A DNA stretch of 64,000 bases. It comes from Squalus acanthias. Lineage: Eukaryota. The position numbers were made by a program, and so were the translations under genes. The stretch lies in the NCBI GenBank assembly GCA_030390025.1, contig CM059432.1, forward strand, positions 24,678,001-24,742,000, written 5' to 3'. Below are positions 13,460-42,033 of this stretch, piece after piece. The notes below the pieces were generated by a model. That model searched no databases. It was not told the DNA's origin and saw only the letters and a list, made by a program, of their open reading frames with translations. Within the stretch, counting starts at the first letter, position 1. Every line of letters starts with the position of its first letter.

Positions 13460-14948
13460 TGTAGAATTCGCAATATATCGCGATTTTGTTAATAAGGAGA
13501 AAACACAGAGTTTCGTTCAAACAGCTTTTATTTCAGTAGAATGCTGGCAAGTTTAAAGTGGACACAAGCAGCCTGTAAAATGGCCGCCGCACCTCGTGAC
13601 AGAACATTCTAGACTTTTCAACAGGCAGACAAGATGGCGTTCCAATAAACATTTGTGCAAGATCGATTAAGATTCAGCACAGTGAAGATAATACACGAGA
13701 CGTTATGGGTTTGCAGTATACACATAGATACTGAAATCGGTCTCCCAGGTACAAAGGAAAGCCATTGTACCGAGTAATCAAGGGCCCATCCAAAAGACAT
13801 TAATATGTAAAATCCCAACGACTCTACGATGAGAGAGCCGTTAGCAGGTAGTTATACAGGACACTTGGAAGCCCCAAACCCCTCCAGGGAGAACACCGAC
13901 CGATTTAACAATGGGAGAAATATTAACAGGTACTCAGACATTTACGAGTAGCCCCGAAACCCATTAAGAACGGAGATCACCCATACAAGACATTTGGGCG
14001 CCAAACCCTAAACAAAAGAATGGACATTATAGTTGGGCGGGAAACGGAAGATTTTGCACTATAATTGCAGGCTCCAAACCGTCCATTCTCGCTCTTGCTC
14101 TCTTGCTCCTGTGCTTTTATCCGGTCGATTCGTAACCTCGTGGCTGCTCCTGTGTACTCGTAGTTGGGCTCGCTCCTGCTTGCCTGTTGCCTCTTCTGAA
14201 AAGACTGTTGAACTTTCTGATCCGTTCGGATCTACCTCGTGTCGCGTAACGAAGACCTATGTTGGTAACTGGCAGCGGAACCGAAGGCCTGAGATGAGAT
14301 GAGATGAGATGAGATGAGATGAGAAGAGAGGAAGACCATATCCATCGCCACGGTCAGTAAATCCCGACCGCGCCTGTAGGTCGATTAGCCAAGTTTTCCT
14401 CGCCAGGAAGACTTCTTCGAACTTTAACGAAACATATTGCATCGATGATAACTGGACTGTGCCCAAAGTAACTGGAACGTGAAAACATATCGTATCGACG
14501 ATATTGACAACTGTGCTCGAAGAGTACCTGTTAAGCCAACCAACACAGGTCTTCATCACAGCAGACGGTCCAGCCTGCTAGCCGGAGCAGTAAAAGCAAG
14601 TAAACAAGTGGGACCAGGAGATCTCCTGACCGACACGTGGGTGCTGCGGTGAAAAACATCCGATCAGCTATTCGGAATTTCTCCGAGTTATCACGAGTGG
14701 TGAGCATGAGTCTCGAAATCCTACGAATCTAGTTTAGGATAGATATTGATAGGGGAGGGTTTAAGGATTAAGGATATTTGTAATGTGTGCCCCTATTTAC
14801 TTTGTGCCGTTCGTTCCTCGTTTCCCTAAGATCGACTATATAACTGTTTACGATAGCAAAATACTGCAGATGCTGGAAATCCGAAATAACAACAGAAAAC
14901 GCTGGAAAAACTCAGCAGGCCAGGCAGCATCCGTAGAGAGAGAAAGAG

Positions 14949-14985
14949 AGTTGACGTTTCAGGTCGATGACCTTTCATCAGAACT
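14949..14985 (-). ncRNA. Minimal type I hammerhead ribozyme, copy 1
   Basis: Minus strand reads AGUU-CUGAUGA-A-AGGUC-AUC-GACCU-GAAAC-GUC-AACU. Confidence 0.8.
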
Positions 14986-15262
14986 GGGAAGAGCTGGAAA
15001 TCAAATAGATTTAAGGCCAGGGTAAAGCTGGGAAAAGGGGGAGGGGATAAAGGAACAAAGGAGGAGATGAAGAGACATTAAGAGACATTAAGAGATATGC
15101 AAGGCTGGAGGTGGTGTTAATGTGACAGATTAAGGCTGAATGAAGTGTGAAATCCACTGGCAGAATGAAGGACAGCTGCCAGCTTCTAGGAGGAAAAAAA
15201 AGGTGGGGGGGGACAAATAAAAGGGTGGATAAAATAAAATATAAATGTGATTGGAGCTGAGG

Positions 15263-18013
15263 TTATGATCTAAAATTGTTGAACTCGATATTGAGTCCAG
15301 AGGGCTGTAGCGTGCCTAAACGAAAGATGAGGTGCTGTTCCTCGAGCTTATGCTAAGCTTCCGTGGAACAGTGTAATAGGCCGAGGACGGTGAGGTCAGA
15401 GTGGGAGTGAAGCGGTGAATTAAAGTGACAGGCCACCGGGAGCTCGGGGTCCCCCTTACGGACTGAACGGAGGTGTTCCGCAAAGCGGTCACCCAATCTG
15501 CGTTTGGTCTCCCCAATGTAGAGGAGTCCACATCGTGAGCAGCGAATACAGTATACTAAATTGCAGGAAGTACAAGTAAATCGCTGTTTCACCTGGAAGG
15601 GGTGTTTGGGGCCCTGGACAGTGGGAAGAGGGGAGGTATAAGGGCATGTGTTGCATCTCCTGCGCGTGCACGGGAAGGTGCCGGGCGAAGGGGAAGGGGT
15701 GCTGGGGGTGGTAGAGGAGTGGACTAGGGTGTCGCGGAGGGAGCGGTCCCTGCGGAATGCTGAAAGGGGAGGTGAGGGGAAGATGTGTTTGGTGGTGGGA
15801 TCACGCTGGAGGTGGCGGAAATGGCGGAGGATGATCCGTTGAATGTGGAGGCTGGTGGGGTGAAAGGTGAGGACAAGGGGAACCCTATCGTGGTTCCGGG
15901 AGGGAGGGGCAGGGGTGAGGGCAGATGTGCGGGAGATAGAACGGACACGGTCGAGGGCCGTGTCGACCACGGTAGAGGGGAATCCTCGGTTGAGGAAAAA
16001 GGAAGACATGTCGGAAGCACTGGTATGGAAGGTGGCATCATCAGAGCAGATGCGGCGGAGACGGAGAAACTGGGAGAATGGAATAGAGTCCTTACAGGAG
16101 GCGGGGTGGGAGGAAGTGTAGTCCAGGTAGCTGTGGGAGTCGGTGGGCTTGTAGTGAATGTTAGTCAATAACCTATCCCCAGAGATGGAGATGGAGAAGT
16201 CGAGGAAGGGAAGGGAAGAGTCGGAGATGGACCATGTGAAGGTGAGGGAAGGGTGGAAATTGGAAGCATAGTGAATGAAATGTTCTAGTTCAGGGCGAGA
16301 GCAGGAGACGGCACCGATACAGTCATCAATGTACCGGAAAAAGAGGTGAGGGAGGGGACCCGAGTAGGACTGGAACAAAGAGTGTTCCACATATCCCACG
16401 AAAAGGCAGGCATAGCTAGGACCCATGCGGGTACCCATAGCAACACCTTTAATTTGGAGGAAATGGGTAGAGTCAAAGGAGAAGTTGTTCAATGTGAGAA
16501 CAAGTTCAGCCAGGCGGAGGAGGGTGGTGGTGGATGGGGACTGGTTGGGCCTCTGTTCAAGGAAGAAGCGGAGCGCCCTCAGGCCATCCTGGTGGGGAAT
16601 GGAGGTGTAGAGGGATTGTACGTCCATAGTGAAGAGGAGACGGTTGGGGCCGGGAAACTGGAAACTGTTAAAATGGCGGAGGGCATCGGAAGAGTCGCGG
16701 ATGTAGGTGGGAAGAGACTGGACAAGGGGAGAAAAAATAGAGTCGAGATAGGAAGAGATAAGTTCCGTGGGGCAAGAACAGGCTGAAACGATGGGTCTAC
16801 CGGGGCAGTCCTGTTTGTGGATCTTGGGAAGGAGGTAGAAGCGGGCTGTGCGGGGTTGGGGAACTATGAGGTTGGCGGCCGTGGGGGGAAGATCTCCAGA
16901 GGAGATGAGGTCAGTGACAATCTTGGACACGGTGGCTTGATGTTCGGTAGTGGGGTCATGGTCCAGGTGGAGGTAGGAGGAGGTGTCAGAGAGTTGGCGT
17001 TCAACTTCCGCTAGGTAGAGGTCGGTTCGCCAAACAACAACAGCGCCACCCTTGTCAGCAGGTTTAATGACAATGTCAGGGTTGGATCGGAGAGAATGGA
17101 GTGCTGCAAGTTCAGAGGGAGGTAGGTTGGAGTGAGTGAGGGGAGCAGAGAAATTGAGCTGGCCGATGTCACGGCGGCAGTTAGCAATGAAAAGATCAAG
17201 AGAGGGTAAGAGGCCAGAGGGAGGGGTCCAGGTGGAACGAGAATTCTGAAAGCGGGAGAAAGGGTCAGCCGTGCGGGGGGAAGACTCCTGGCCAGAGAAG
17301 TGGGCACGGAGACGGAGGCGGCGGAAAAAGAGCTCAGCATCGTGCCGAGCTCGAAATTCATTGAGATGGGGGCGTAAGGGGATGAAGCTCAGGCCTTTGC
17401 TGAGGACTGATCGTTCGGAGTCAGAGAGGGGAAGGTCAGAGGGGATAGTGAAAACGCGGCAGGGGGTGAGATTGGGAGAAGGGGGGTCAGAGGAAAGTGA
17501 AGGGGAAGAAGGTTCCGGAGGGGCTTTAGTGTCCAAGAGTTGTTGAAGCTTGCGATCCTTGACATCGGAAAGGAAGAAGAAAAGTTTTTTGTTGAAGCGT
17601 CGGATGAGTCTAAGGATGAAATGGAACTGTGGACCCGGACAGCTTTGAGATAGAGTGCGTCGGTGCTGCTGAAGAGAGATGTCGAGAGTGTTCATGTGGC
17701 GCCGCATGGCATTGAGCGTGGATCTCAAGATGCGGCGAGAGCAGTAGTTCGAGGAACGATGAATATCTTGGAGATATTTGTAATCCTGGGTGGATCCGAA
17801 ACACGAAGGGTGGAAGTTTAGTTGGAATCCACGTGGGATAAGTCGGAACCGGAGACAGTTGCTGAGGAAAGTAATGTGGCTGTGAAACCGAGTCTTGGCA
17901 GATACCTGATCAAACACGAGAAGGGAAACTGAAATCAATGAAGATGAACAAGGTTGAAGAGCCAAACGGAAATCCCGTCGAAGAGAAGAGCAGAACTTCT
18001 TCAAGGTAGGCAT
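15263..18013 (-). pseudogene. Penelope RT / GIY-YIG endonuclease with one premature stop at 15353-15355
   Basis: IKPADKGGAVVV, LPKIHK, GVAMGTRMGPSYA, RYIDD, Cys linker CTRRRCNTC, LVYCIRC..LYIGETKR; frame resumes after TAG as HKLEEQHLIFRLGTLQPSGLNIEFNNFRS*; start at 18013 is inferred (ORF is open from 18178). Confidence 0.88.
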
Positions 18014-18148
18014 TCCAAGAAGAGAGGTGGCAGTGAACCAAACACTAATACGATAGCAAAATACTGCAGATGCTGGAAATCCGAAATAACAACAGAAAAC
18101 GCTGGAAAAACTCAGCAGGCCAGGCAGCATCCGTAGAGAGAGAAAGAG

Positions 18149-18185
18149 AGTTGACGTTTCAGGTCGATGACCTTTCATCAGAACT
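18149..18185 (-). ncRNA. Minimal type I hammerhead ribozyme, copy 2
   Basis: Identical to 14949-14985. Confidence 0.8.
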
Positions 18186-18633
18186 GGGAAGAGCTGGAAA
18201 TCAAATAGATTTAAGGCCAGGGTAAAGCTGGGAAAAGGGGGAGGGGATAAAGGAACAAAGGAGGAGATGAAGAGACATTAAGAGACATTAAGAGATATGC
18301 AAGGCTGTTTGTAAGATTGTACTGTCATTAATCTGTGCTTATGACATGTATTTCATAATCTTAAGTATCATGCAATAAAGATTTTCCATTTCGTACCATT
18401 CAAACCAAGTCTACATGAGTTTTATCTCCATTACTGCTCTCGCATCTAAGTCCAGTGTCTAGAACCGTAAGGGAGAGTGATTCGAACCACTCACAGGTGT
18501 GTCTAGTGTTCCCAGACTGGCTGGAGACCAGAACAGGCAACAAGGCCTAGACCCGCACTGACATACAGGCTGCACAGAGCCGCGTGAATCTCACAGGCTG
18601 CGAGACACGCAGGGTCGGGAATCCCTTACAGAA

Positions 18634-20447
18634 AATGGCGACCGCGGCAGGACACTGGCAGCGAGAGGGTAGTGTGTTAGATTTTGGAATGACTGTACGA
18701 AATGTTATGCAGGAAAAGATAGCGGATTATGTGTTTGGAAAGGTTAATCTAACTAAGAAATGGATAAGTGAATTGTTAGCGGATAAGAGCCCACTAGAGG
18801 CAGCTGAAAGGTGGACAGATAGTAAAGAACATAGAAAGACACTTGAGAAAGCAGTCTGGCTTATGTGTTACAAAAGGCAGGTTCAGATTTCAAACCAGAC
18901 CATTACAGCGCTAGTAGCTCGAATCAGTCATTTAGAGGGAGAAATGGAGGAGAAGGTTTCTGGAGGGGAGGTGCTCATTAAGAATTTAAATGAGTTACAC
19001 CAAGAAAGCCAGGAAGTCTCCAGTCACCTTAAAACAAGGATAGATTATCTCGAGTGCCAGGTCACTGAGGCAAAATTGAATGAGAGCAGGTTAAAGGAAA
19101 GATGTAACCGCCAAGCTGCCCAGATAAGAACTCAAGAAGAGAGCTTAATTGGGGGTTAGGGCGGCATATAAGTTGGCCCTTGAGGATAAGTTTAAGGGAG
19201 CCGATCATAGCGCCTGCCAAAGGGAGATAGAGCACCTCAAAAAAGCCGTGAACAATGCGAACGGCATGGTGTGCCTTATCAATCCGTCGGCGCACCAGCC
19301 GCTAGTAAATGAGAGATTTAGAAAATCCCCACCAAGTAAAGCAGAAGAAGTAGTAGCCACTGCGCCCTCCGCGCCACCCAGCTATTCAGAAACCTGGGTT
19401 AGGGAGGAAGCAATGGAAGAAACAAAAGAGCCCATTGAAAAGGAAGTAGAAAAGGGATCGTTGTATCCAGTAACGGGTATTAAAAGGGGCCCAAGCAGAA
19501 ACGGTGGGGAAGAACCGGGGGATCTCCTCGGACAGCTGGTGTTGCCTCACAGTTCACATCAGCTGAGAGCTATGATAAATCACGTACGGAAGCTGACCGA
19601 GGCAGACGACCCTTCCGTACATTTCAGAGAAGTTGAGCAAGCCGCAGCCATTAACGGCTGCGATGATGGGGAGACAGCAAAAATGCTGCTGTTCTCATTA
19701 GACAGCTCGGTCCTTCAGTGTCTCTCAGGCGAGAGCAAGAGGGGAACCAAGAGTTATGAGGAATTAAAGAATGAGGTCCTGGAAGTGTTGGGGGCGAACG
19801 ACGAAGGTCCGTTTGCTAGAGTGGGACAGACAGTGCAGATGGAGGGAGAACCCCCGAAGGTTTTTGCCGACAGGCTGTGGCCAGTATATGAGCGCAGCTG
19901 TCTAGGTGCGCCCGAGCGCGAAGATGTGGAAGGTTTAGCTTTAACTCATTGGCTTAGGTGCATAATAGCCAACAGTTTACCAGCCGTTAGAGAGCAGGCA
20001 AAAGCATGGTTTGATCCCAATGACCCCAACATTACGGAAGAGTCGGTCTTGAATCGACTCACGTTAGGTTATCGCAATATAAGGGGTATGGCAACACGTC
20101 CCCTTAAGGGAAGAGTACATGAGGTACGACCCGCAGCCCCGTATCAAAGAGAGTGGCATCAGGAGGGTAATCGCGCCCCACAGGCAAGTAATGCTTGTTA
20201 CGGGTGTGGGAAGACAGGGCACTGGCGCAAGCATTGCAGGAACCCTTGGAAGGATTCCAAGGATAAAAATCCCGCGGTCCGAGCCCAGGCGCCTGTCCCG
20301 GCTAAGGAAGCCAAGGCACCCACCCCTCCCGACGACCTCGAAGCAGTGTTAGGAGCCATGCGCAAGCTGGTTTTGAATGCGCGTGGACAGGTGGCGGTCG
20401 CAACCGGCCCCGTAGGTGCCGCAGGACCGTCTAATAGTACCCCATGA
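18634..20447 (+). pseudogene. gag: gag, split by a +1 frameshift near 19151-19155
   Basis: Coiled-coil N-terminal ORF (18584-19159) plus ORF 19149-20447 with PSAPPSY, capsid-like helical region and CYGCGKTGHWRKHC knuckle; start codon uncertain. Confidence 0.8.
18635..18652 (+). promoter_or_regulatory. Primer-binding site, tRNA-Ser-like
   Basis: TGGCGACCGCGGCAGGAC 4 nt after the LTR-terminal CA; TGGCG...GGCAGGA resembles the complement of a tRNA-Ser 3' end (recalled, not searched). Confidence 0.6.
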
Positions 20448-23400
20448 CTAGAACCAGCACAGCCCGTCTACCTGTGTCCGCTTAGCTATGATGCGTGGAG
20501 GCGACCTGTGGTGGAGATGGAGGTAGAGAAACAGAAGGGTAGTTATTTGTTGGACACGGGAGCTTCTTGCACCATAATCCATACAGATAACCCTTTTGAC
20601 TCGCCGCTATCTACCAAGGTCCCATTCACGTTAGCAGGGTTCACAGGAAAAGAACAGGCTGGCACGTTTTCCCTTCCGCTATCCATTCGTTTAGGAACAC
20701 TTCGCCTTAAGTGGAAGTGTATACTGATGGCATGGCAAAAGGGGGGTGGAAGAGGTATTCTCGGGTCCGATCTCCTAGCGGGACACGGGATCCTCGTGGA
20801 CCTCAGAAATCACTGTCTCTGGGGGGCTAAAGGTGAAAAGGGCGAGGTGATAGTGATTCCGGGGGAGGAAGAAACAGGGGTCCTGTGTACCGTACAGCCA
20901 TCCGGAGGCTACGACCTCAGGCTTATGGTCGCAGATGTCCCAACGGACATGCAAACGTACGTGTCAGATAATATGCACGCGTTTGCAACCCACAAGCACG
21001 ATTGTGGGAGAGTGGTCGGGTTTGAGGTCAGCGTAGATGGGGACCCCATGACCCGACCCCAAAAGCAGTATAACTTCCCCAAAGAAGCCGAACCCGATAT
21101 GGAGACAGCAATGTCTTCCTTGGTGCAGCAGGGCGTGTTGAGGCCGATAGCCACACACGTGAACTCCCCATTATGGCCGGTTAGGAAGCCGGATAATTCG
21201 TGGAGAGCCACGGTGGACTACAGAGTCCTTAACAGTAACATTCCCGCCTGCGCGCCCACAGTAGCAGCAGTTGCTGACCTAATAGGGAGCATCCCAGCGT
21301 CCGCGACCACGTTCACGGTGCTGGATATCTCGAACGGTTTTTGGTCCATCCCGCTGCGGCGAGAGGACCAGTACAAGTTTGCCTTTACTTTCAAAGGACA
21401 ACAGTACACATGGAACTGTCTGCCACAGGGTTTCCACAATAGCCCCAGTATTTTTCATCAGTGTATGGCAGGAAGTTTAAAGGAGTTTAGTCAGCCCAAT
21501 CAGATAGTACAGTATGTGGATGATTTGCTCCTATTTACGGACTCAAGGGAGGAGCACGGACCACTACTGGACGAGTTATTGGAGCTGTTAGCGAGAAAGG
21601 GTTTTAAAATAAACCCTAAGAAAGCACGTATCGGTCAGCGGGAAGTAAAATTCCTGGGACTGACCATACGCGCTGGGGAAAGAACCATAGACAAAGCAAG
21701 GAGGGAGTCGGTGCAAGAATTACCGATTCCCAACAACGTAAGGGGTGTGAGGTCCTTCTTGGGACTGACCGGTTACTGCAGGGATTTTATCGAAGATTAT
21801 GCGGCCACAGCGGCGCCGCTCCTCCGACTCCTCCATAAGGGGGTGGAGTGGTTTTGGGACGAGGGCTGCCAAGCAGCCTTCGAGAAGTTAAAAAGGGATC
21901 TGCAGACCGCGCCAGCCTTAGGGGCCATAGATGGGGGGAAGGAGTTTTTCCTGGAGGTAGCTGCCAGCGGAGACAGCTTAAGCGCCGTGCTGCTCCAAGA
22001 GCGTCACGGCAAGCTGAGGCCGGTTGTCTATTCATCCAGGGTATTAACGGATGTGGAGAGAAGTTTCTCCAATTGCGAAAGGCACCTTTTAGCCACGCAT
22101 TGGGCTGTGAAAAGATCAGCGATCTTCACAGGGCTCTCTCCCATCACTCTCCTCACACATCACACACCAACTAAGATGCTTCTGGATGGGAGGATTAAAG
22201 ACGGGACCGTAAGCAGCGCACGCATTGCGCGTTGGACCCTTCTTCTCTCCCAGTTGGATCTTAGAGTAAAAGGTCTTTGCGAGCCCAGGCTTGCGGCCAA
22301 TTTGGTATACCCCGGTACAGCCCACCGGTGTTCGGTGGAAGGGGTATGGGACGTCAACATAGGTTTACGGGCCGGGATACATCCCACTGGGCGCGAGATT
22401 TATGTTGATGGGTCTAGCACAGTGTCTGCTGGCGAGCGACTCACAGGGTGTGGAGTTTATGACCCTGCGGCAGACCTTGCCCTGGCGATCAAGCTCCCTA
22501 GCACTATGAGCGCGCAGCAAGCTGAGCTGTCTGCCGTGGTGTACGTTGTGACCCACCCAGACATTTTCCCAACCCCATACACGATTTGCTCGGACAGTAT
22601 GTTCACCTGCAATTCGTGTACGGAATACCTGGCCATTTGGTCCCGCCGCGGATACACCTCCGCGGACGGGCGACCTTTAACGGTGAAGCCCTTGCTGGAA
22701 AAGATCTTAGCAGCAGCAGTAGGGGAGGAAGGAGAGATTTTCATCCATAAGGTGAAAGCTCACTCCTCCACAGAGCCCCGTGGGGAGGGCAACCGGCAGG
22801 CGGATGCGCTAGCCAGGGAGGGTGCCCGCGACGGCACTTTCTGGAACCCCTATAGGACCGGACCCATAGCAGCGGTCCGAGGCGGGGACGGGAATCCCGG
22901 GAACCCCAGGGTAGCATTGCCCCTAGACCTTAAGACCGTCCAAGCCCAGGATCCCGCCCTAAAAGCAGTCCTAAAAACGATTGCTGAGGGGAGGCAGGTA
23001 GAAGGTCCGTACAGTACGGCAACCCTCTCAGTTAAGGAAGGCATGCTGTTCCGCGAGGAGCAGTGGGTTGTGCCGCAGCAGCACAGGAGGGAATTCCTCC
23101 AGTTGGCTCACGAGGGACCAGGGGCAGGGCACCCCGGGTCCGAGGTTACCTGGCAACGGGTAGAGCAAGCGGGATGGTGGCCAGGGCTCAGGGAACAAGT
23201 CCGCGAGTTCTGTGCAAACTGTCTTGTGTGCGCTGCAAACAACCCAGACCCCCAGAAAAGGAAGGTGCCCATGGGACACGTAAGAAGGGTAGAGGGACCA
23301 TGGCAGTCGATACAGATCGACTATATAGGACCCCTGCCCACCACCCAGGGAGGGTATAAGTACTGCCTCGTCCTGGTGGATGTGTTTTCCAAGTGGGTGG

Positions 23401-24971
23401 AAGCCTTCCCTTGTCGAACAGCTACGGCACTGGGTACAGCAAAAATCTTGGTCCGGGAAGTGTTCTCGCGGTGGGGACTCCCCCGTTTTGTGGAGTCAGA
23501 CCAAGGGAGTCATTTCACCGGCCAGGTGATGCAGAACACCCTCATGCTTTTGGGCATTGAAGGGAAGTGGCACGTAGCACACAATCCCCAGTCATCCGGG
23601 ATTGTTGAACGTATGAACCGGACCCTGAAGGAGAAATTGAGGAAAGAGACTAGGAACTCGCCCCAAAAATGGGCGGAAGTTCTGCCTTTAGTCCTCATGG
23701 GGGTCCGGGCCAGTCAGTCAAAAAGTACGGGGTACTCCCCGCACGAGGTAATGACCGGCAGGCTCATGCGAACCCCCACCCATGTGCTAGCCCCGGTGCT
23801 CACTGAGGGTCAGCTCCAAGAGATAAGCAGGGACAAGTTCGCCCAGACTCTCTTGGAGCGCCTGAAGCAAGTTTATGAGCAGGCGGCTGGGAACATGGGA
23901 AGGCAGCATCAGGGCAATCGCTTGTTGCTGGAACCCCGCAAAACGCGGGAGTGGGAAGTAGGAGACCAGGTCATGGTCAGAAACTACGCCAGAGTAGGGA
24001 GTCTGGAACCACTGTATATGGGACCCTACAACATTGTAGACAAGGCGAGTCCCATGGTTTACGCCGTAAAAGTACCTCGGCGCACTAAGTGGTTCCACAT
24101 AAACCAATGCAAACTGTACCAGCCAGGTGCGCAGGGGAAAACTACAGGGGTAAATCCCGCCAATGGGAAAGCACAGCCCCAGGTAGGACCACAAGGCACA
24201 CAGGCAGGCATAGCAGCTTGCATCAGGGGAAGGGACATCCCGGACGATCATGCAGCGTTTTTCTGGAATTGGGGGTTAGATGAGGAAGAATTCAGGGTAC
24301 CCTGGTCAGATGAGGATAGTGCAGATGAGCATAGTGATGATGACGGGTGGTTCCTGAGGAACGGTCTGGAGGGAATGGGGGCTGTAGGTAGAGATCCACA
24401 CAGGGTGGACACACAAGCTGCAGGTCCCGAGGACAGGAGGGAGGAGCTAGAGGAGGCAGGGCCAGCCGCTATAGGAGCACAGAGAGTACCGGTGTGGCTC
24501 CCAGAGATGTGGCCGCCCGCTTTGAACGTCCAGTCCTCAGGGGAGGCAGAGATCACGAATGAAGGGCCGCCTGCTGGGCCGAGCAGGGCGGAGCCACGAA
24601 TTGCCAGCCCCGAGGTTAGGGAGGCGGAGTCAGCAGAGGCGGAGCCGGCGACTGTGATGGAACCCCAGGTCATCCCGATGGAGGTCTCGGAACCCGGTCC
24701 GTCCGTCACGGAACCCCCGCCCATAGCAACTCCCCGTAGGTCAAGTAGAGAACCCCAGCCCAGGAGGATGTGGTCATGTCCCCAGACTGCCCCAAGGCGT
24801 AAATTTCAGGTTAAGATAACCCGGGTACAGACCGGCCACATCGCAGCAGTAACAGGCTGCGGCAGATCAGAGGGAAGGGTCAGCGCAGCAACAGGCTGCG
24901 GCAGATCAGAGGGAAGGGTCAGTGCCCTCCCACCGTCGGGAAGAGCTCGCAGCAGCCTTCTCAGAATTTAA
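20448..24971 (+). CDS. pol: pol polyprotein: protease, RT, degenerate RNase H tether, RNase H, integrase, C-terminal extension
   Basis: LLDTGAS; LDISNGFW, LPQGF, YVDD; IYVDGSS/AQQAEL/SDS/GNRQADALA; HHCC, QIDYIG, SDQG, GIVERMN, GPY; open from the gag stop. Confidence 0.93.
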   Translation, partial: LEPAQPVYLCPLSYDAWRRPVVEMEVEKQKGSYLLDTGASCTIIHTDNPFDSPLSTKVPFTLAGFTGKEQAGTFSLPLSIRLGTLRLKWKCILMAWQKGGGRGILGSDLLAGHGILVDLRNHCLWGAKGEKGEVIVIPGEEETGVLCTVQPSGGYDLRLMVADVPTDMQTYVSDNMHAFATHKHDCGRVVGFEVSVDGDPMTRPQKQYNFPKEAEPDMETAMSSLVQQGVLRPIATHVNSPLWPVRKPDNSWRATVDYRVLNSNIPACAPTVAAVADLIGSIPASATTFTVLDISNGFWSIPLRREDQYKFAFTFKGQQYTWNCLPQGFHNSPSIFHQCMAGSLKEFSQPNQIVQYVDDLLLFTDSREEHGPLLDELLELLARKGFKINPKKARIGQREVKFLGLTIRAGERTIDKARRESVQELPIPNNVRGVRSFLGLTGYCRDFIEDYAATAAPLLRLLHKGVEWFWDEGCQAAFEKLKRDLQTAPALGAIDGGKEFFLEVAASGDSLSAVLLQERHGKLRPVVYSSRVLTDVERSFSNCERHLLATHWAVKRSAIFTGLSPITLLTHHTPTKMLLDGRIKDGTVSSARIARWTLLLSQLDLRVKGLCEPRLAANLVYPGTAHRCSVEGVWDVNIGLRAGIHPTGREIYVDGSSTVSAGERLTGCGVYDPAADLALAIKLPSTMSAQQAELSAVVYVVTHPDIFPTPYTICSDSMFTCNSCTEYLAIWSRRGYTSADGRPLTVKPLLEKILAAAVGEEGEIFIHKVKAHSSTEPRGEGNRQADALAREGARDGTFWNPYRTGPIAAVRGGDGNPGNPRVALPLDLKTVQAQDPALKAVLKTIAEGRQVEGPYSTATLSVKEGMLFREEQWVVPQQHRREFLQLAHEGPGAGHPGSEVTWQRVEQAGWWPGLREQVREFCANCLVCAANNPDPQKRKVPMGHVRRVEGPWQSIQIDYIGPLPTTQGGYKYCLVLVDVFSKWVEAFPCRTATALGTAKILVREVFSRWGLPRFVESDQGSHFTGQVMQNTLMLLGIEGKWHVAHNPQSSGIVERMNRTLKEKLRKETRNSPQKWAEVLPLVLMGVRASQSKSTGYSPHEVMTGRLMRTPTHVLAPVLTEGQLQEISRDKFAQTLLERLKQVYEQAAGNMGRQHQGNRLLLEPRKTREWEVGDQVMVRNYARVGSLEPLYMGPYNIVDKASPMVYAVKVPRRTKWFHINQCKLYQPGAQGKTTGVNPANGKAQPQVGPQGTQAGIAACIRGRDIPDDHAAFFWNWGLDEEEFRVPWSDEDSADEHSDDDGWFLRNGLEGMGAVGRDPHRVDTQAAGPEDRREELEEAGPAAIGAQRVPVWLPEMWPPALNVQSSGEAEITNEGPPAGPSRAEPRIASPEVREAESAEAEPATVMEPQVIPMEVSEPGPSVTEPPPIATPRRSSREPQPRRMWSCPQTAPRRKFQVKITRVQTGHIAAVTGCGRSEGRVSAATGCGRSEGRVSALPPSGRARSSLLRI

Positions 24972-25283
24972 AGGGGCCGCCCTGAGAACGGGCGGCACTG
25001 TATAGTAATAAGTTTTAAGTTTTAAGTTTATAGTTCAAGGTTAAGTTTTAAGTTTATAGTTCAAGGTTAAGTTTATAGCTTTAATAAGGTTAAGTTTGTA
25101 GTGTTTTTAACAGAAAACGATAAAATGATGGGAGCTTTAAAGATAGGTTCAGTTGAAGTTTATTCAGCGAACGTTGAAGTTTACGTGAGGCGAGGTCAGG
25201 GGACCCGCTCACCCTTCACAAAAGCCAGAGACTCTTGCGAGGCTGGCTACCTCATTCTATCTGATCACAGGAACCAAGGAAGG

Positions 25284-27635
25284 ATGGAACGAATTCTAGT
25301 ATTGCTCGTGGCAATCGGATGCGGATTGGCCTATCGAGGCCGCACCAAGGATGTCGTGGTGTTTGGATGTTCCGGGGACACGGCCCCCATCGCGGTGGAT
25401 GGGACCGGAAGACGGGAGGCAGAGGAGACCAGCACCTATTTCCACAAGGGAAGGTGGCCAGGATGGCTGGGAACGAACTCAACGGAGTATTCCAGCACAT
25501 CGGGGTTTGCCTACAAAGAGACTTCTTTACTGTGCCCCAAAGTAAGGATCATCGCACCCAGGATCAGCGTCACCGTCGGCAAACGGATTTGTTTGACTTG
25601 TAGTGGGAAGGTCCCATTGAGCCGATGGTGGTGGCTGCGAAAGCTGAGCAAAACTATGAGGAACTCTTCGGTCGAGTGGGAACGACTGGGTAATAATACC
25701 CATCGGACAATTACGGGGACAGACGGACAAGTGAAAGTCTGTTGGGACAAATGGTGGGAACCGGATGAGGGAATTTATGTATGTATGTGGGGGTCAAAGT
25801 ACGTTTGCCCCAAAGGCATCTCCATATTTTTTATTAATCAATGGCAGGATAACGGACAGGGGATGAGGTGGGATGCGAGCACCAGGGGGTGCGGAGCCCC
25901 ATTCTCCCCGATCCCGGTAAATGCCACTGAGCTCATTACGCGCCCACGCAAAGCCCCGCCCACGATTCCGGTGGTTCTAGCTGAGGAAGAAGGGTGCCCT
26001 AAAACTAGTAAGGGACCCGGGAATGGTTTGGTACTGGTCCCCACAGACCAGATACTATTTCAGGGGGTACATTACGCGGTGGCCTCGGTGATTTTAAATC
26101 TCACTGAGGTACGGTTACCAGAGTGGTGCCCCAAAAAGACGGAACAGTTGTACCAGGTCCTGTTGACCAAGATGTTCAGACAATTTTACGAATTCGATTT
26201 CGCGGAAATTGATAAAACAAGTTTGTACACCGCGCCACAGGAAGTTTTGGATCAAGTAGGGAGGCAAAGAAGGGGTTTGGTGAACGATGCGTTCACTGCT
26301 TTTAACACAGGTACATCTGTGGTCAACGCTCTAGACAGTGTGGAGCTGCAGACCCAGATTAATGGTTTAAAGACACAATTAAAGGACATTCTAACAGATG
26401 AGAATAAAGTGGTAGGGTCGGGTCTACACGAGGACCAAGCCATGACCCTCCATTTAAAGGAAATTATAGCAGAGTTGGAGAAACATGCAAAGACGGTAAA
26501 TGCCCTGATTAGGGAAGATCGGAATGCATCCGATCAAGCTGCGCAGAAGGAGGTGTGCGTGCTTTACGGGGCGTGGTTACTGGGCGAGGGCCGCAGTAAT
26601 TTGGAGGATTTAAAACAAGGTTTGGTTCCGTCCTGGATAAGTAACAAACACCTACGGGCGCTCCACCCTTTTCAGAACGCATTAAGCCCGTGCCAGCTCA
26701 GGCTAGCTTCAGAAGCATACCCAGTCCCCGTGGACTGTGGACGATCAAACCATACTATTATGGGTATAGTTTTACGTATGCCGGTTTTGGGCGACACAGC
26801 AAAGCCCGCCCCGGTATATCGGGTAGAGAACATTGGTGTCATTCAGGGGGGAGCCCACATTCGTTATGCAGCGGTTCCACCTTACGTCATCCGCTGGGAG
26901 CAAACGATGACAGGTACAGATCTCTCTGGTTGTCGTGGCAGGGGAGCACACATAATACTGTGCCCCCAGCACTTGAATGCCTTTTTAACACCACAGTGCG
27001 GGTTCAGAACGACTGGCGCCAAGTCCATGAATTGCACCATGGAGGCAATGGCACAAGATCATGTGCCTCCGCAGGTAGCATACATCGGGGGTGGAACATA
27101 TTGTGTTACCACTGCAGCGCAACACTACCAGCATGGAAACCGTAGCCGGTGTCCGGTGAGTGACAGCAGTTTCTGTTTTAAACCCAGGGCGGAAGTTCAA
27201 GTAGCACAACAGCGAATTATCCCAATCCCTGAACCATCCACTGTTCATCTCACAGTAAAAGAGAATTTCACCGACTTGCAGCGATTCGTCGCGCATTTTG
27301 GATACCTCATTCCCCCTCTCCCTGAACACCTCACCAAGCTTTTGAAAGCCGTCGCGGTATCACAGAAACATTTTTATACATTAGAGCAGAAAACTGTCGA
27401 AATAGGAACAGACATTCTGGATATAGTAGTTCCACCGTGGTGGAATCTGTTCACCAATATTGAAGTACCTTCATGGATCAGAATAGCCTCCCACATTTTA
27501 GTCGTATGCCAAGTTTTCATTGTAGTGTACCTATTGGTTGTACATTGTAAAAGAGACAAACGCCTCACCAAGCATGAAAACACGGGAGAGTGGCGAGAAC
27601 GTTACGTGCGCGTGCACGATGAGAGCACCGTGTAA
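25284..27635 (+). CDS. env: env: signal peptide, Ig-like domain, class I fusion glycoprotein, TM anchor (783 aa)
   Basis: MERILVLLVAIGCGLA signal; LTC..W..DEGIYVC; RQRR/GLV furin site at 26262-26273 followed by heptads; Cys-rich block; TM IASHILVVCQVFIVVYLLVV; N-glycosylation sequons. Confidence 0.85.
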   Translation: MERILVLLVAIGCGLAYRGRTKDVVVFGCSGDTAPIAVDGTGRREAEETSTYFHKGRWPGWLGTNSTEYSSTSGFAYKETSLLCPKVRIIAPRISVTVGKRICLTCSGKVPLSRWWWLRKLSKTMRNSSVEWERLGNNTHRTITGTDGQVKVCWDKWWEPDEGIYVCMWGSKYVCPKGISIFFINQWQDNGQGMRWDASTRGCGAPFSPIPVNATELITRPRKAPPTIPVVLAEEEGCPKTSKGPGNGLVLVPTDQILFQGVHYAVASVILNLTEVRLPEWCPKKTEQLYQVLLTKMFRQFYEFDFAEIDKTSLYTAPQEVLDQVGRQRRGLVNDAFTAFNTGTSVVNALDSVELQTQINGLKTQLKDILTDENKVVGSGLHEDQAMTLHLKEIIAELEKHAKTVNALIREDRNASDQAAQKEVCVLYGAWLLGEGRSNLEDLKQGLVPSWISNKHLRALHPFQNALSPCQLRLASEAYPVPVDCGRSNHTIMGIVLRMPVLGDTAKPAPVYRVENIGVIQGGAHIRYAAVPPYVIRWEQTMTGTDLSGCRGRGAHIILCPQHLNAFLTPQCGFRTTGAKSMNCTMEAMAQDHVPPQVAYIGGGTYCVTTAAQHYQHGNRSRCPVSDSSFCFKPRAEVQVAQQRIIPIPEPSTVHLTVKENFTDLQRFVAHFGYLIPPLPEHLTKLLKAVAVSQKHFYTLEQKTVEIGTDILDIVVPPWWNLFTNIEVPSWIRIASHILVVCQVFIVVYLLVVHCKRDKRLTKHENTGEWRERYVRVHDESTV

Positions 27636-27922
27636 TCGGAAAATGGCGTCACTCCCGCTCGCCGCGTGCGCCGCGGAAGTTTGTACTCATATAAGATTTT
27701 CAGAGATTGTAAATACGTTGGGAACTCGACATGTTTTAAGAGTTGGTGTTGATTTATTTTGGTGATGGTGTTACAGTTAAAAATGATTGTTTGGTTTTGG
27801 GTTTTGTTTCTCCTTTCCCTGAATAAAAGATGAATATACAGGTGATACGAGAGGCATCGGCCTGGTTACGCCGGGAAGGAAAACAAGTGGTGTAAGTGTA
27901 AGGGCAAATAATGCCTACGGTG

Positions 27923-28222
27923 AATCTGTGCTTATGACATGTATTTCATAATCTTAAGTATCATGCAATAAAGATTTTCCATTTCGTACCATTCAAACCA
28001 AGTCTACATGAGTTTTATCTCCATTACTGCTCTCGCATCTAAGTCCAGTGTCTAGAACCGTAAGGGAGAGTGATTCGAACCACTCACAGGTGTGTCTAGT
28101 GTTCCCAGACTGGCTGGAGACCAGAACAGGCAGCAAGGCCTAGACCCGCACTGACATACAGGCTGCACAGAGCCGCGTGAATCTCACAGGCCACGAGACA
28201 CGCAGGGTCAGAATCCCTTACA
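27923..28222 (+). repeat. 3' LTR remnant (distal 300 bp only)
   Basis: Matches 18330-18630 with 4 substitutions and 1 indel by eye. Confidence 0.9.
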
Positions 28223-28399
28223 AGGAGGAGGGGGTAGAGAAATTCGATAGGATAAAAATAGATACAGAGACGTACTTAAAAGGTTGGCAGCACTCAAAGT
28301 ACAAAAGTCACCCGGTCTGGATGGGATGCATCCATGGTTGCTGAGGGAAGTAAGGGTGGAAATAACGGAAGCTCTGGCCACAATCTTTCAATCCAAATT

Positions 28400-40452: not shown

Positions 40453-42033
40453 TAGTGAAACCTGTATAAACGGACGCTCCCAAAAAACGGACAGCTGCAA
40501 AAAATGGAAACTTATTGAGAAACCCAAATAACTTACATGGTAAAATATACAAGAGGCATTCTGAAACCATGGACACTCGCAAATTACGACCTACAGATAG
40601 CCTTCAATGCAACTTTTACAACATAAAACACGGGACACCGCTCTACCTCCCATTCAGTTTTCATTCAGGTGCCAGTTGCACGGAACTTCACTGTGTAAAT
40701 TCCTGCCTCCGGCCCTATGACATCACCCCCACCACTGCAGAGAGCCTGGACCAGCTGGTGTTGTGAACACTCGAAGGTCGGCATTGGGGGAGGAACTCAG
40801 GAGTCGGTGGGGAACTCAGGAGTCAGTGGGGAACTCAGGAGTCGGGGGGGAGCTCAGGAGTCGGGGGGGAACTCAGGAGTCGGGGGGAGCTCAGGAGTCG
40901 GGGGGGATCTCAGGAGGCGGGGGGGGAACTCAGGAGTCGGGGGAACTCAGGAGTCGGGGGGAGCTCAGGAGTCGGGGGAACTCAGGAGGCGGGGGGGGAA
41001 CTCAGGAGTCGGGGGAACTCAGGAGTCGGGGGGAGCTCAGGAGTCGGGGGGGCGAGAGGGAGACTGGGGGATGGGGGCTCGGGGCGAGAGGGAGACTGGG
41101 GAATTGGGGCTCGGGGCGAGAGGGAGACTGGGGAATGGGGGCTCGGGGCGAGAGGGAGACTGGGAAATGGAGGTTTGTAATCAGGTGTCACATGATCAGA
41201 CGCCACATGATCAGACATCACATGGTCAGATGTCATGTGATCAAACCTCCAGGATTGCCTCCAACCAGAGTTGGCAATCTACTCACCAGCCTCCTGAATC
41301 AGCGTGTGCGAACAGCAAGAGGGGCTATCCTTTCCTACCCCAGCGCCGCGTCCATACACTCTTTTAGTGGCTGCTGGCAGCTCCCCTCCCCCTGACACTG
41401 GCATCGTCTTCTTTCCCTCGGCTTCTGATGGTGGATCCGTTTCTCTGAGGAGCTTTGATTTTTGGGGAGTGAAGGTGGATGGCTGTCCCGGCTCTCTCTG
41501 CTGCTCTATAGAGTGATGGACAGGCTTGCGAGTCCCATATATGAGTCAGTCTTCCTGCAGACTCACCGCTCAACCAGAAAACTGCAGTTTCACTCCTACA
41601 CATAATGTGGCCTGTTGCGTTTTCCCTCCCAAATGTTCTCAATCCGTTCTAAGACTTGCCTTTGGAAGATTCAACCTGTCATCACATTTCCCCCTTTTTT
41701 TGTCCTGTGACTGCCCTAATGTTGGTAAGTAGAACTGAGAAAGGCAGTTCGTTACTGAAGTTACACTCTGCTCCAAGTGAGAGCAGTTTGAAATGAAATG
41801 GGAATTTAGACCGCAAAACTGTTAAATGAGCAGAGCTGAACACTGGTGTGTGGCATGTGGATTCTTAGCATTGTTGCAGTTGGTTATGTGATCATAATCT
41901 CAGCTGGTTCTTCAAGATTGCTGGAAAAAATTTTTACAGTACATACAATGAAGATTTTGAAAATAGGGACACATGCAAGATAAGGACAGCTGATGCCAGT
42001 CACCAAGATGTCCGTAATTTACAGGTTTCTCTC
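40453..42033. mobile_element. Non-autonomous Tigger/pogo-like DNA transposon
   Basis: Imperfect TIRs tagtgaaacctgtataaacggac / gtccgtaatttacaggtttctctc; TA on both sides; interrupts a LINE (gaacggtgata...tgtccaagt). Confidence 0.65.
40785..41165 (+). repeat. G-rich compound minisatellite
   Basis: ~14 units of (g)n aactcaggagtc (~18-21 nt), then ~4 units of ggggcgagagggagactggg...ggggctc (~31 nt). Confidence 0.9.

What the first reader, a model, noticed from the sequence alone, without database searches (positions are those of the whole stretch)
20445..20510. gag-pol joined by a UGA-CUAG readthrough-type stop
Seen: gag ends CCA TGA CTA G and the same frame continues stop-free (LEPAQPVYLCPLSYDAWRRPVVEM) into the protease. 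Established: UGA-CUAG is a strong leaky-stop context in vertebrate genes and UGA-CUA occurs in alphaviruses, whereas gamma/epsilonretroviruses read through UAG. Inference: Pol is made by opal readthrough.
Basis: partly seen in the sequence, partly recalled or inferred. Interest (0 to 1): 0.7.

Follow-up and report, generated by a model that had tools for sequence, protein, structure and literature searches.

The report
Retroviral gag-pol with alphavirus-style leaky stop
A retrovirus fossil, probably from a shark or ray, separates its coat gene from its enzyme gene by one leaky UGA stop followed by a long predicted RNA hairpin, the arrangement alphaviruses use rather than the UAG-plus-pseudoknot of textbook retroviruses, though no read-through has been measured.

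Summary
Observation confirmed. gag ends at UGA 20445-20447, followed by CUAG, and the same frame runs 1507 codons through protease, RT, RNase H and integrase of a 9.9-kb provirus. Readthrough is the best reading (about 0.8). Five Gag relatives end at the same place. The codons between the stop and the first Met encode protease residues matching HIV protease 5-12. New here: a predicted 207-nt stem-loop (20457-20663) starts 9 nt after the stop (z -7.1; best of 245 windows), the geometry of alphavirus stimulators. The first 100 nt alone do not fold significantly. The element is a non-class-I retrovirus, in or near the snakehead-retrovirus grade, not a lokiretrovirus; yet 7 published lokiretrovirus consensus sequences also end gag with an in-frame UGA-CUA that the paper's main text does not mention. 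UGA gag-pol junctions are already known in fish and frog retroviruses, so 'opal instead of amber' is not new; the UGA-CUA plus extended-stem cassette was not found in my searches. Nothing was measured, and conservation of CUAG and of the stem in other copies is untested. The scan earlier noted a gag-UGA-CUAG-pol junction in a fungal copia element (other DNA).

The parts
18310..18630 (+). 5' LTR (TGTAAG...CTTACA termini)
   Evidence: Direct repeat D5; alignment with the 3' LTR, 296 of 300 aligned letters identical over the shared part, first 20-26 letters differ
18636..18653 (+). Primer-binding site; overlaps the gag ATG (18635-18637)
   Evidence: TGG-initiated 18-mer 5 nt after the LTR. Assignment to an arginine tRNA is recalled, not tested
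18635..19159 (+). gag, N-terminal coiled-coil part; ends at a frame break particular to this copy
   Evidence: ORF; N-terminus resembles that of skate Gag P0121 and of P0151, which are single uninterrupted proteins
19149..20447 (+). gag, capsid-nucleocapsid part with one CCHC knuckle (about 20193-20240), ending at the UGA
   Evidence: ORF; weak zf-CCHC match E 0.059; 47-53% identity to 3 Gag relatives
20445..20451 (+). UGA-CUAG: gag stop in a type II readthrough context
   Evidence: Sequence; chance 5 of 1275; context defined in PMC13517186 section 2.5
20448..20456 (+). 9-nt spacer between the stop and the stem
   Evidence: VEEV 8-9 nt, EEEV/WEEV 9 nt in PMC3159437
20457..20663 (+). Predicted extended stem-loop, 207 nt, 78 pairs, 1-nt 5' bulge near the base; candidate readthrough stimulator
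   Evidence: -93 kcal/mol, z -7.11, 0 of 200 shuffles; rank 1 of 245 windows; 0 of 200 synonymous-codon controls; pair list. Prediction only
20484..20485 (+). Possible splice-acceptor AG (rival mechanism)
   Evidence: 15 of 20 upstream letters are pyrimidines; no joint to it listed among contigs
20517..20519 (+). First in-frame ATG of pol (residue 24), inside the protease domain
   Evidence: residues 16-23 before it align with HIV-1 protease 5-12
20448..24971 (+). pol frame: protease, RT, tether, RNase H, integrase; open throughout
   Evidence: ORF; Pfam RVP, RVT_1, RT_RNaseH_2, RNase_H, Integrase_H2C2, rve
25071..27635 (+). env frame (stop to stop): furin site RQRR at residue 398, long TM subunit, membrane anchor at 805-823
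   Evidence: paramyxovirus-F-like by language-model features, a lead only
27873..27890 (+). Polypurine tract
   Evidence: Sequence directly before the 3' LTR
27891..28222 (+). 3' LTR; no target-site duplication with the 5' flank

Best explanation
This is the programmed gag-pol junction of an endogenous retrovirus of a non-class-I lineage, in or near the snakehead-retrovirus grade, probably from a cartilaginous fish. Most ribosomes stop at the UGA and release Gag. A few percent insert an amino acid and continue in frame, making Gag-Pro-Pol from the same unspliced RNA. The signal is bipartite, as in alphaviruses: the CUAG context weakens termination, and a long stem-loop that starts 9 nt downstream, at the ribosome's mRNA entry, stimulates it further. 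Shown: the sequence, the frame, the conserved Gag end, the coding nature of the codons after the stop. Predicted: the stem-loop. Inferred: readthrough itself (about 0.8), the stimulatory role of the stem (about 0.6), the level (a few percent, by analogy) and the inserted residue (Trp, Arg or Cys; recalled). This copy cannot make full Gag, because gag has a frame break upstream.
For: In-frame UGA then 1507 open codons. CTAG follows 5 of 1275 TGA in the window. 5 of 5 full-length close Gag relatives end 20-21 residues after the same motif as the window's Gag, which ends after 20; they are 3 independent sequences, as three skate proteins share one cluster. Residues 16-23, upstream of the first Met, align with HIV-1 protease 5-12; the pre-Met segment also matches coelacanth P0004 (shuffle p 0.005). 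Stem-loop 20457-20663: z -7.11, 0 of 200, rank 1 of 245 windows on an unselected grid, 0 of 200 codon-resampled controls; spacer 9 nt and 5' bulge as described for VEEV/EEEV/WEEV (PMC3159437); SINV's element is 177 nt. In-frame stops in relatives: L001 (10,688-nt contig, the length of snakehead retrovirus) UAG-GGC; elephant-shark CmiERV scaffold 2 UGA-CAU-G, read by eye. In-frame UGA-CUA at the gag end of 7 lokiretrovirus consensus sequences, read by eye. No X XXY YYZ slippery heptamer in 20251-20560.
Against: No measurement of readthrough. The stop codon and its context could not be read in any close relative: only proteins were available, and the read-laying table showed 40 of 423 variant rows. 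The stem has no covariation support, and a shorter competing hairpin (20454-20514) is predicted when 170 nt or fewer are folded. Other windows of the provirus also fold well (z -6.4 and -6.3 with 12 shuffles). The 211 nt after L001's UAG do not fold unusually (z -1.0), so the stem is not shared by that relative. The pre-Met segment alone does not match L001 significantly (p 0.34). A candidate splice acceptor and a Met in good Kozak context lie just downstream. In Tca2, a gag-UGA-pol junction failed to direct readthrough in reporters and held a cryptic promoter (PMC2194720 abstract).
Confidence: 0.8

Rival explanations
1. Readthrough happens but rests on the UGA-CUAG context alone; the long hairpin has another job (packaging, dimerisation, masking a splice site) or is a folding accident.
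For: UGACUAG alone gives at least about 1.3% readthrough, and a downstream structure is only conditionally needed for UGACUA (PMC13517186 section 2.5). No covariation data. Competing short hairpin.
Against: The best-folding window of 245 starts at the stop, and its base sits at the 9-nt spacing of tested stimulators. In SINV and VEEV the stem raises readthrough 3- to 14-fold.
Confidence: 0.3
2. Pol is made separately, foamy-virus style, from a spliced mRNA or an internal start at Met24; the UGA is an ordinary stop.
For: AG at 20484-20485 after a pyrimidine-rich run; Met24 has G at -3 and +4; a Met at the matching place in P0001 (81% identical). Foamy viruses use a separate pol start (PMC8278194).
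Against: Met24 is 12 residues before the catalytic Asp and would remove protease residues matching HIV 1-12; foamy protease has its Asp at position 24 (PMC8278194 Table 2). Foamy pol is in a different frame from gag, here it is in frame. Two out-of-frame ATGs lie between the acceptor and Met24. Frog relatives have their first Met even closer to the Asp.
Confidence: 0.08
3. The UGA is a nonsense mutation of this one copy in a single gag-pol frame.
For: This copy does carry another lesion in gag. Coelacanth model P0004 runs through the junction with Gln; 10 of 24 lokiretrovirus consensus sequences are annotated as fused gag-pol.
Against: 5 of 5 full-length close Gag relatives end at the same place. 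No protein covering both sides of the junction among 27 hits or in the search for longer forms (weak). A random stop would be followed by CTAG about 0.4% of the time.
Confidence: 0.03
4. Pol is reached by ribosomal frameshifting or hopping around the stop, helped by the hairpin.
For: Strong downstream stems also stimulate frameshifting (established knowledge).
Against: gag and pol are in the same frame; the other two frames carry several stops across the junction; no slippery heptamer.
Confidence: 0.02

Closest known systems
Alphavirus nsP3-nsP4 opal readthrough (SINV, CHIKV UGA-CUA; VEEV, EEEV, WEEV UGA-CGG), Beier-Grimm type II
   Same: UGA-CUA context, polymerase downstream in frame, extended stem-loop after an 8-9 nt spacer with a 5' bulge (PMC3159437; PMC13517186).
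   Different: Here it is in a retrovirus. The predicted stem is longer (207 nt against 126-177 nt) and paired almost throughout. Neither covariation nor activity is shown.
Gammaretrovirus (MoMLV) and WDSV gag-pol readthrough, type III
   Same: Single in-frame stop between gag and pro-pol, with a structure 8-9 nt downstream.
   Different: UAG-G and an H-type pseudoknot there; UGA-CUAG and a long stem here. My simple pseudoknot scan found nothing beyond chance (12% of shuffles as good). RT lies outside the class I clade.
Fish and frog retroviruses with a UGA junction: SSSV (UGAAGA), ZFERV (UGACGA), RMEV (UGAAGU), XtERV-S (TGA)
   Same: In-frame UGA between gag and pol, presumed suppressed.
   Different: None is listed with UGA-CUA, and no downstream element is described in the passages read.
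Snakehead retrovirus and SnRV-related ERVs (CmiERV lineage I of elephant shark)
   Same: In-frame gag stop, coiled-coil Gag N-terminus, similar protease and RT start motifs, same side of the RT tree.
   Different: L001 has UAG-GGC and no unusual downstream fold; CmiERV scaffold 2 has UGA-CAU-G. RT only 37-44% identical to L001; no significant env or gag match to L001.
Lokiretroviruses (PMC7947760)
   Same: Dual RNase H, coiled-coil region before capsid, F-like Env (lead only), and in-frame UGA-CUA at the gag end in 7 consensus sequences.
   Different: No long protease-RT insertion; RT does not group with the one loki-type row held (P0018). The paper found none in the cartilaginous-fish row I saw (3 genomes, 0).
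Vertebrate cellular UGA-CUAG readthrough (OPRL1, MDH1 and others)
   Same: Same heptamer, active in vertebrate ribosomes.
   Different: Short C-terminal extensions there; a whole polymerase polyprotein here.

Membership tests
Endogenous retrovirus (Retroviridae) | Two LTRs, PBS, PPT; gag, pro-RT-tether-RNase H-IN, env with furin site and membrane anchor | tested here: met
Endogenous retrovirus (Retroviridae) | Target-site duplication around the provirus | tested here: not met
   The flanks differ and belong to different repeat families; suggests a recombined or joined locus
Type II readthrough signal (Beier-Grimm) | UGA-CUA or UGA-CGG in frame | tested here: met
Type II readthrough signal (Beier-Grimm) | Extended stem-loop starting 8-9 nt after the stop | tested here: met
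   By prediction only: against PMC3159437
Type II readthrough signal (Beier-Grimm) | Synonymous-site conservation and covariation of the stem across relatives | tested here: inconclusive
   Only 2 variants in the region were displayed, both synonymous and unpaired (unpaired fraction 25%); 383 of 423 rows not shown
Type II readthrough signal (Beier-Grimm) | Measured readthrough above background | not testable with these tools
   Needs a reporter or proteomics
Gamma/epsilonretrovirus (class I) | UAG-G stop with H-type pseudoknot | tested here: not met
   Stop is UGA; pseudoknot scan at chance level
Gamma/epsilonretrovirus (class I) | RT within the class I clade | tested here: not met
   The window lies outside a supported clade (99/95, 100/100) that I take as class I from source names and Pfam domains; no named MLV or WDSV row was in the tree
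Lokiretrovirus | RT groups with lokiretroviruses, sister to other retroviruses | tested here: not met
   P0018, the only row with the loki signature seen in the supplement, is separated from the window by 100/99 and 100/98 branches; one reference row only
Lokiretrovirus | Env similar to Mononegavirales F protein | tested here: inconclusive
   Atlas first hit PF00523, score 0.94, but low recognition; no Pfam F hit; fold model pLDDT 37
SnRV-like / class III retroviruses | RT clusters with snakehead retrovirus | tested here: inconclusive
   Same side of the tree but in an unresolved fork; closer rows are frog, coelacanth and unnamed ERVs. No foamy or ERV-L row in the trees
SnRV-like / class III retroviruses | Arginine-tRNA primer-binding site | not tested
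   The PBS is present; its tRNA assignment and the Arg PBS of SnRV are recalled

The most novel reading that the evidence does not exclude
Alphavirus-type readthrough (UGA-CUA plus a long stem-loop after a 9-nt spacer) is a real and so far unrecognised way for retroviruses to make Gag-Pol. It is used by this cartilaginous-fish lineage and, separately, by many lokiretroviruses, the sister group of all other retroviruses. UGA-C readthrough would then be a recurrent, possibly old, mode of pol expression in aquatic retroviruses, with lineages switching between UGA-C, UAG-G and a sense codon at one position.
Probability: 0.5. Interest if true: 0.7.

Novelty: new variant of a known kind. Interest (0 to 1): 0.55.

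Why it matters
Retroviral pol expression is usually taught as frameshifting, UAG readthrough with a pseudoknot, or foamy-type splicing. UGA junctions in fish and frog retroviruses are listed in a 2026 review without any mechanism. This locus offers a complete, testable candidate: a type II context and a strong stem at the tested spacing. The same context in lokiretrovirus consensus sequences would explain how their separately annotated pol gene is translated, and would move the annotated start of those Pol proteins upstream. It also gives an independent case for asking whether UGA-CUA needs a downstream structure, which is unsettled for alphaviruses.

Tried and rejected
Lokiretrovirus membership was my first reading and was dropped. 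Folding 86-111 nt around the stop gave nothing beyond chance (5 of 6 stretches, z -0.75 to +1.48; the 150-nt stretch gave -2.68). H-type pseudoknot scan: 12% of 200 shuffles as good. No whole genome is held for the window. DNA of close relatives was not found: viral contigs gave nothing in 3 of 4 scans and only L001 in the fourth; metagenome contigs gave 10 loci at 24-31% identity, not used. Sequencing runs: no RNA holder listed; 4 of the 24 listed runs were laid, all contigs, so they say nothing on expression or splicing; no variant at 20445-20451 among the 40 of 423 rows shown, which is not proof of conservation. No fused Gag-Pol form among longer proteins (weak by the tool's own note). Gag relatives left out of the end-position count as truncated or too distant: P0123, P0124, P0152, P0158, P0162, P0164, P0169, P0173. 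Rfam: one chance-level match in 10.2 kb, none at the junction. Env: no PDB sequence match, single-sequence fold unusable, so no fold search was run. A TGACTAG at the start of the Loki-Lch consensus is out of frame with pol and was not counted; of 17 TGACTAG text hits in that supplement 4 are gag ends. Literature searches that found no report of UGA-CUA(G) readthrough in a retrovirus or lokiretrovirus; the library lacks most subscription papers and Repbase records, and the loki supplement text was cut when stored.
Full report
Observation. The window reads CCA TGA CTA G at 20442-20451. The gag frame 19149-20447 ends at this TGA and the same frame stays open for 1507 codons to 24971, with Pfam matches to retroviral protease, RT, two RNase H-type domains and integrase. 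On the + strand of the window 5 of 1275 TGA triplets are followed by CTAG, and the motif occurs once in the provirus.

The element. LTRs lie at 18310-18630 and 27891-28222, with 296 of 300 aligned letters identical over the shared part but different first 20-26 letters and no target-site duplication. A PBS follows at 18636-18653, a polypurine tract precedes the 3' LTR, and an 854-codon env frame has a furin site and a membrane anchor. gag starts at an ATG that overlaps the PBS and is broken by a frame break near 19150. Skate Gag P0121 and the unnamed P0122 and P0151 are uninterrupted, so the break is a lesion of this copy. The host is probably a shark or ray: the only named close Gag relatives are from the skate Rhinoraja longicauda (52%). 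That is inference.

Lineage. I first read it as a lokiretrovirus, because the nearest Pol hits are called NYNRIN-like and Env looks F-like. That failed. Published loki Pol proteins carry a long insertion between protease and RT, and the window's RT-start motif had 0 hits in the loki supplement (text cut when stored). In two trees (50 rows of RT; 26 rows of RT plus tether; rows chosen by me from 120 hits plus L001) the only loki-type row, P0018, is cut off from the window by 100/99 and 100/98 branches. The window lies with frog, coelacanth and unnamed ERVs and with L001 in an unresolved fork, outside the clade I take as class I. L001 is a 10,688-nt contig; that is the published length of snakehead retrovirus (PMC12193657), and its junction UAG-GGC is the one given for SnRV. 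So the element is a non-class-I retrovirus in or near the SnRV grade; the exact place is open, as no foamy or ERV-L reference was in the trees.

Is the stop programmed? All 5 full-length close Gag relatives end 20-21 residues after a shared motif, where the window's Gag ends after 20. Three are skate proteins of one cluster, so this is 3 independent sequences; truncated and distant Gags were left out (listed under Tried and rejected). None of 27 hits to a query spanning the junction, with X at the stop, covered both sides. Proteins do not reveal the codon. The one direct look at other copies was inconclusive: four runs cover all 30 bins, but only 40 of 423 variant rows were shown, none at 20445-20451. 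More distant relatives have an in-frame stop at the same boundary: L001 UAG-GGC and elephant-shark CmiERV scaffold 2 UGA-CAU-G, which I read by eye in the supplement of PMC4422223. Against uniformity, the coelacanth model P0004 passes the boundary with Gln-Gly.

Must ribosomes cross the stop? The first ATG in the pol frame is residue 24, only 12 before the catalytic Asp. Residues 16-23 align with HIV-1 protease residues 5-12, and the 23 residues before the Met match P0004 (shuffle p 0.005) though not L001 (p 0.34). A start at Met24 would cut into the protease fold, so these codons are very likely translated, and they can be reached only through the stop or by a splice from gag. There is no slippery heptamer, and the other frames are closed. 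A candidate acceptor at 20484-20485 and a good Kozak context at Met24 keep a foamy-type rival alive at low odds.

The stimulator. With 211 nt a single extended stem-loop appears, 20457-20663, 78 pairs, -93 kcal/mol, z -7.11, 0 of 200 shuffles. I chose that stretch after seeing longer folds, so I rescanned the provirus on an unselected grid: the window starting at 20453 ranked first of 245 by z and by excess energy, though the next two reached z -6.4 and -6.3 with only 12 shuffles each. It also beat 200 of 200 controls that keep the protein sequence. The stem starts after a 9-nt spacer and has a 1-nt 5' bulge near its base. In PMC3159437 (passages) the VEEV stem follows an 8-9 nt spacer, those of EEEV and WEEV a 9-nt spacer, each with a 1-nt 5' bulge, and removing it cut readthrough 3- to 14-fold. 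VEEV and SINV elements span 126 and 177 nt (PMC13517186 section 4.2.4). The two variants displayed in this region (20459, 20483) are third-position and unpaired in the model; that is weak support. Limits: no covariation test, a competing short hairpin in shorter folds, and no such fold after L001's UAG (z -1.0).

What is known. UGA-CUA is a type II signal of SINV, CHIKV and PSIV, and UGACUAG alone gives at least about 1.3% in human genes (PMC13517186 section 2.5). The same review lists retroviral UGA junctions as UGAAGA (SSSV), UGACGA (ZFERV) and UGAAGU (toad ERV), and SnRV as UAGGGC. XtERV-S has an in-frame TGA presumed to be suppressed (PMC8278194). I found no report of UGA-CUA(G), or of an extended-stem stimulator, in a retrovirus, within a library that lacks most subscription papers.

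A second lineage. In the supplement of PMC7947760, 14 of 24 lokiretrovirus consensus sequences have a separately annotated pol and 10 a fused gag-pol. I saw the gag end in 9 of the 14. Seven have UGA-CUA in frame with the downstream protease region: Ofa, Cne, Pyo and Sau with G next, Bsp, Dcl and Lro with A next; the preceding codons vary. Tfu has TG-N-CTA at the same place, and the Lca passage showed no such stop. Ape, Aro and Lch begin at or just before pol; Bpe and Rca were not resolved. In Bsp the consensus slips frame further downstream. All this was read by eye. The main text has 0 hits for readthrough, stop codon, frameshift or termination, and so has the Odin paper. As lokiretroviruses lie outside the window's clade, this is independent use of the same context, by convergence or old inheritance; I cannot tell which.

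Mechanism and odds. Gag is made by termination at the UGA; Gag-Pro-Pol by a near-cognate tRNA reading it in a few percent of passes, favoured by CUAG and probably by the stem at the mRNA entry channel. Readthrough 0.8; stem as stimulator 0.6; separate pol start or splice 0.08; private nonsense mutation 0.03; frameshift 0.02. Tca2 is the caution: its gag-UGA-pol junction did not read through in reporters (PMC2194720).

What I saw of each paper. PMC7947760: parts 1-2 of 4, term search, supplement passages. PMC9040795: term search only. PMC12440569, PMC5210030, PMC10435555, PMC12193657, PMC3159437, PMC8310308: passages. PMC8278194: passages and section 5. PMC13517186: abstract, sections 2.5 and 4.2.4, passages including 4.1.2. 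PMC4422223: part 1 of 2 and supplement file 1 part 1. PMC2194720: abstract and outline. The original SnRV, SSSV and ZFERV papers were not read. The arginine identity of the PBS, the usual residues inserted at UGA, and the repeat-family labels of the flanks (Penelope-type, CR1-type) are recalled.

Verdict. A real, probably functional readthrough junction; a new variant of a known kind. Interest 0.55.

Noticed in passing
window 18635-18653: The gag start codon overlaps the primer-binding site, so the PBS itself encodes the first residues of Gag (MATAAGHW). Skate P0121 (MATTKGHW) and P0151 (MATAAGPR) start alike, so the overlap seems to be a family trait.
   Followed up: partly
window 19149-19159: gag is broken by a frame break in this copy; three related Gags are uninterrupted, so this provirus cannot make full Gag although pol and env are open.
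   Followed up: yes
window 18290-18330 and 27891-28245: The two LTRs differ in their first 20-26 letters, and the flanks are different repeat elements with no target-site duplication: probably a recombinant of two proviruses or an assembly join. LTR divergence should not be used to date it.
   Followed up: partly
window 25071-27635: Env has a 450-residue TM subunit without a CX6CC motif; its best language-model hit is the paramyxovirus-type F0 family (0.94, low recognition). An F-like Env on a non-loki Pol would be unusual. The SU part looks Ig-like by eye.
   Followed up: partly
PMC7947760 supplement, Loki-Ofa, Cne, Pyo, Sau, Bsp, Dcl, Lro, Tfu: In-frame UGA-CUA at the gag end of 7 lokiretrovirus consensus sequences (ambiguous in Tfu), not mentioned in the main text; their Pol proteins are annotated from later start codons.
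   Followed up: partly
window 18374-18379: The AATAAA signal lies only about 65 nt into the LTR, which implies a very short U3 or an unusual LTR layout.
   Followed up: no
window 15353-18277 (- strand): A 974-codon open frame with RT and a GIY-YIG start, Penelope-type, abuts the 5' LTR; 259 nt of its end are repeated exactly at 14849-15107.
   Followed up: no
window 23043-23253 and 22562-22772: Two further strongly folding windows inside pol (z -6.4 and -6.3 with 12 shuffles).
   Followed up: no
window 24200-24971: pol carries a long acidic, low-complexity tail of about 270 residues after the integrase, with a short duplicated motif near its end.
   Followed up: no
P0002-P0005, P0008: Frog and coelacanth proteins labelled NYNRIN-like or Gypsy integrase-like by their sources are complete ERV Pol proteins of this lineage.
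   Followed up: partly
window 40778-41395: G-rich tandem repeats with units of about 18-19 and 32 nt.
   Followed up: no
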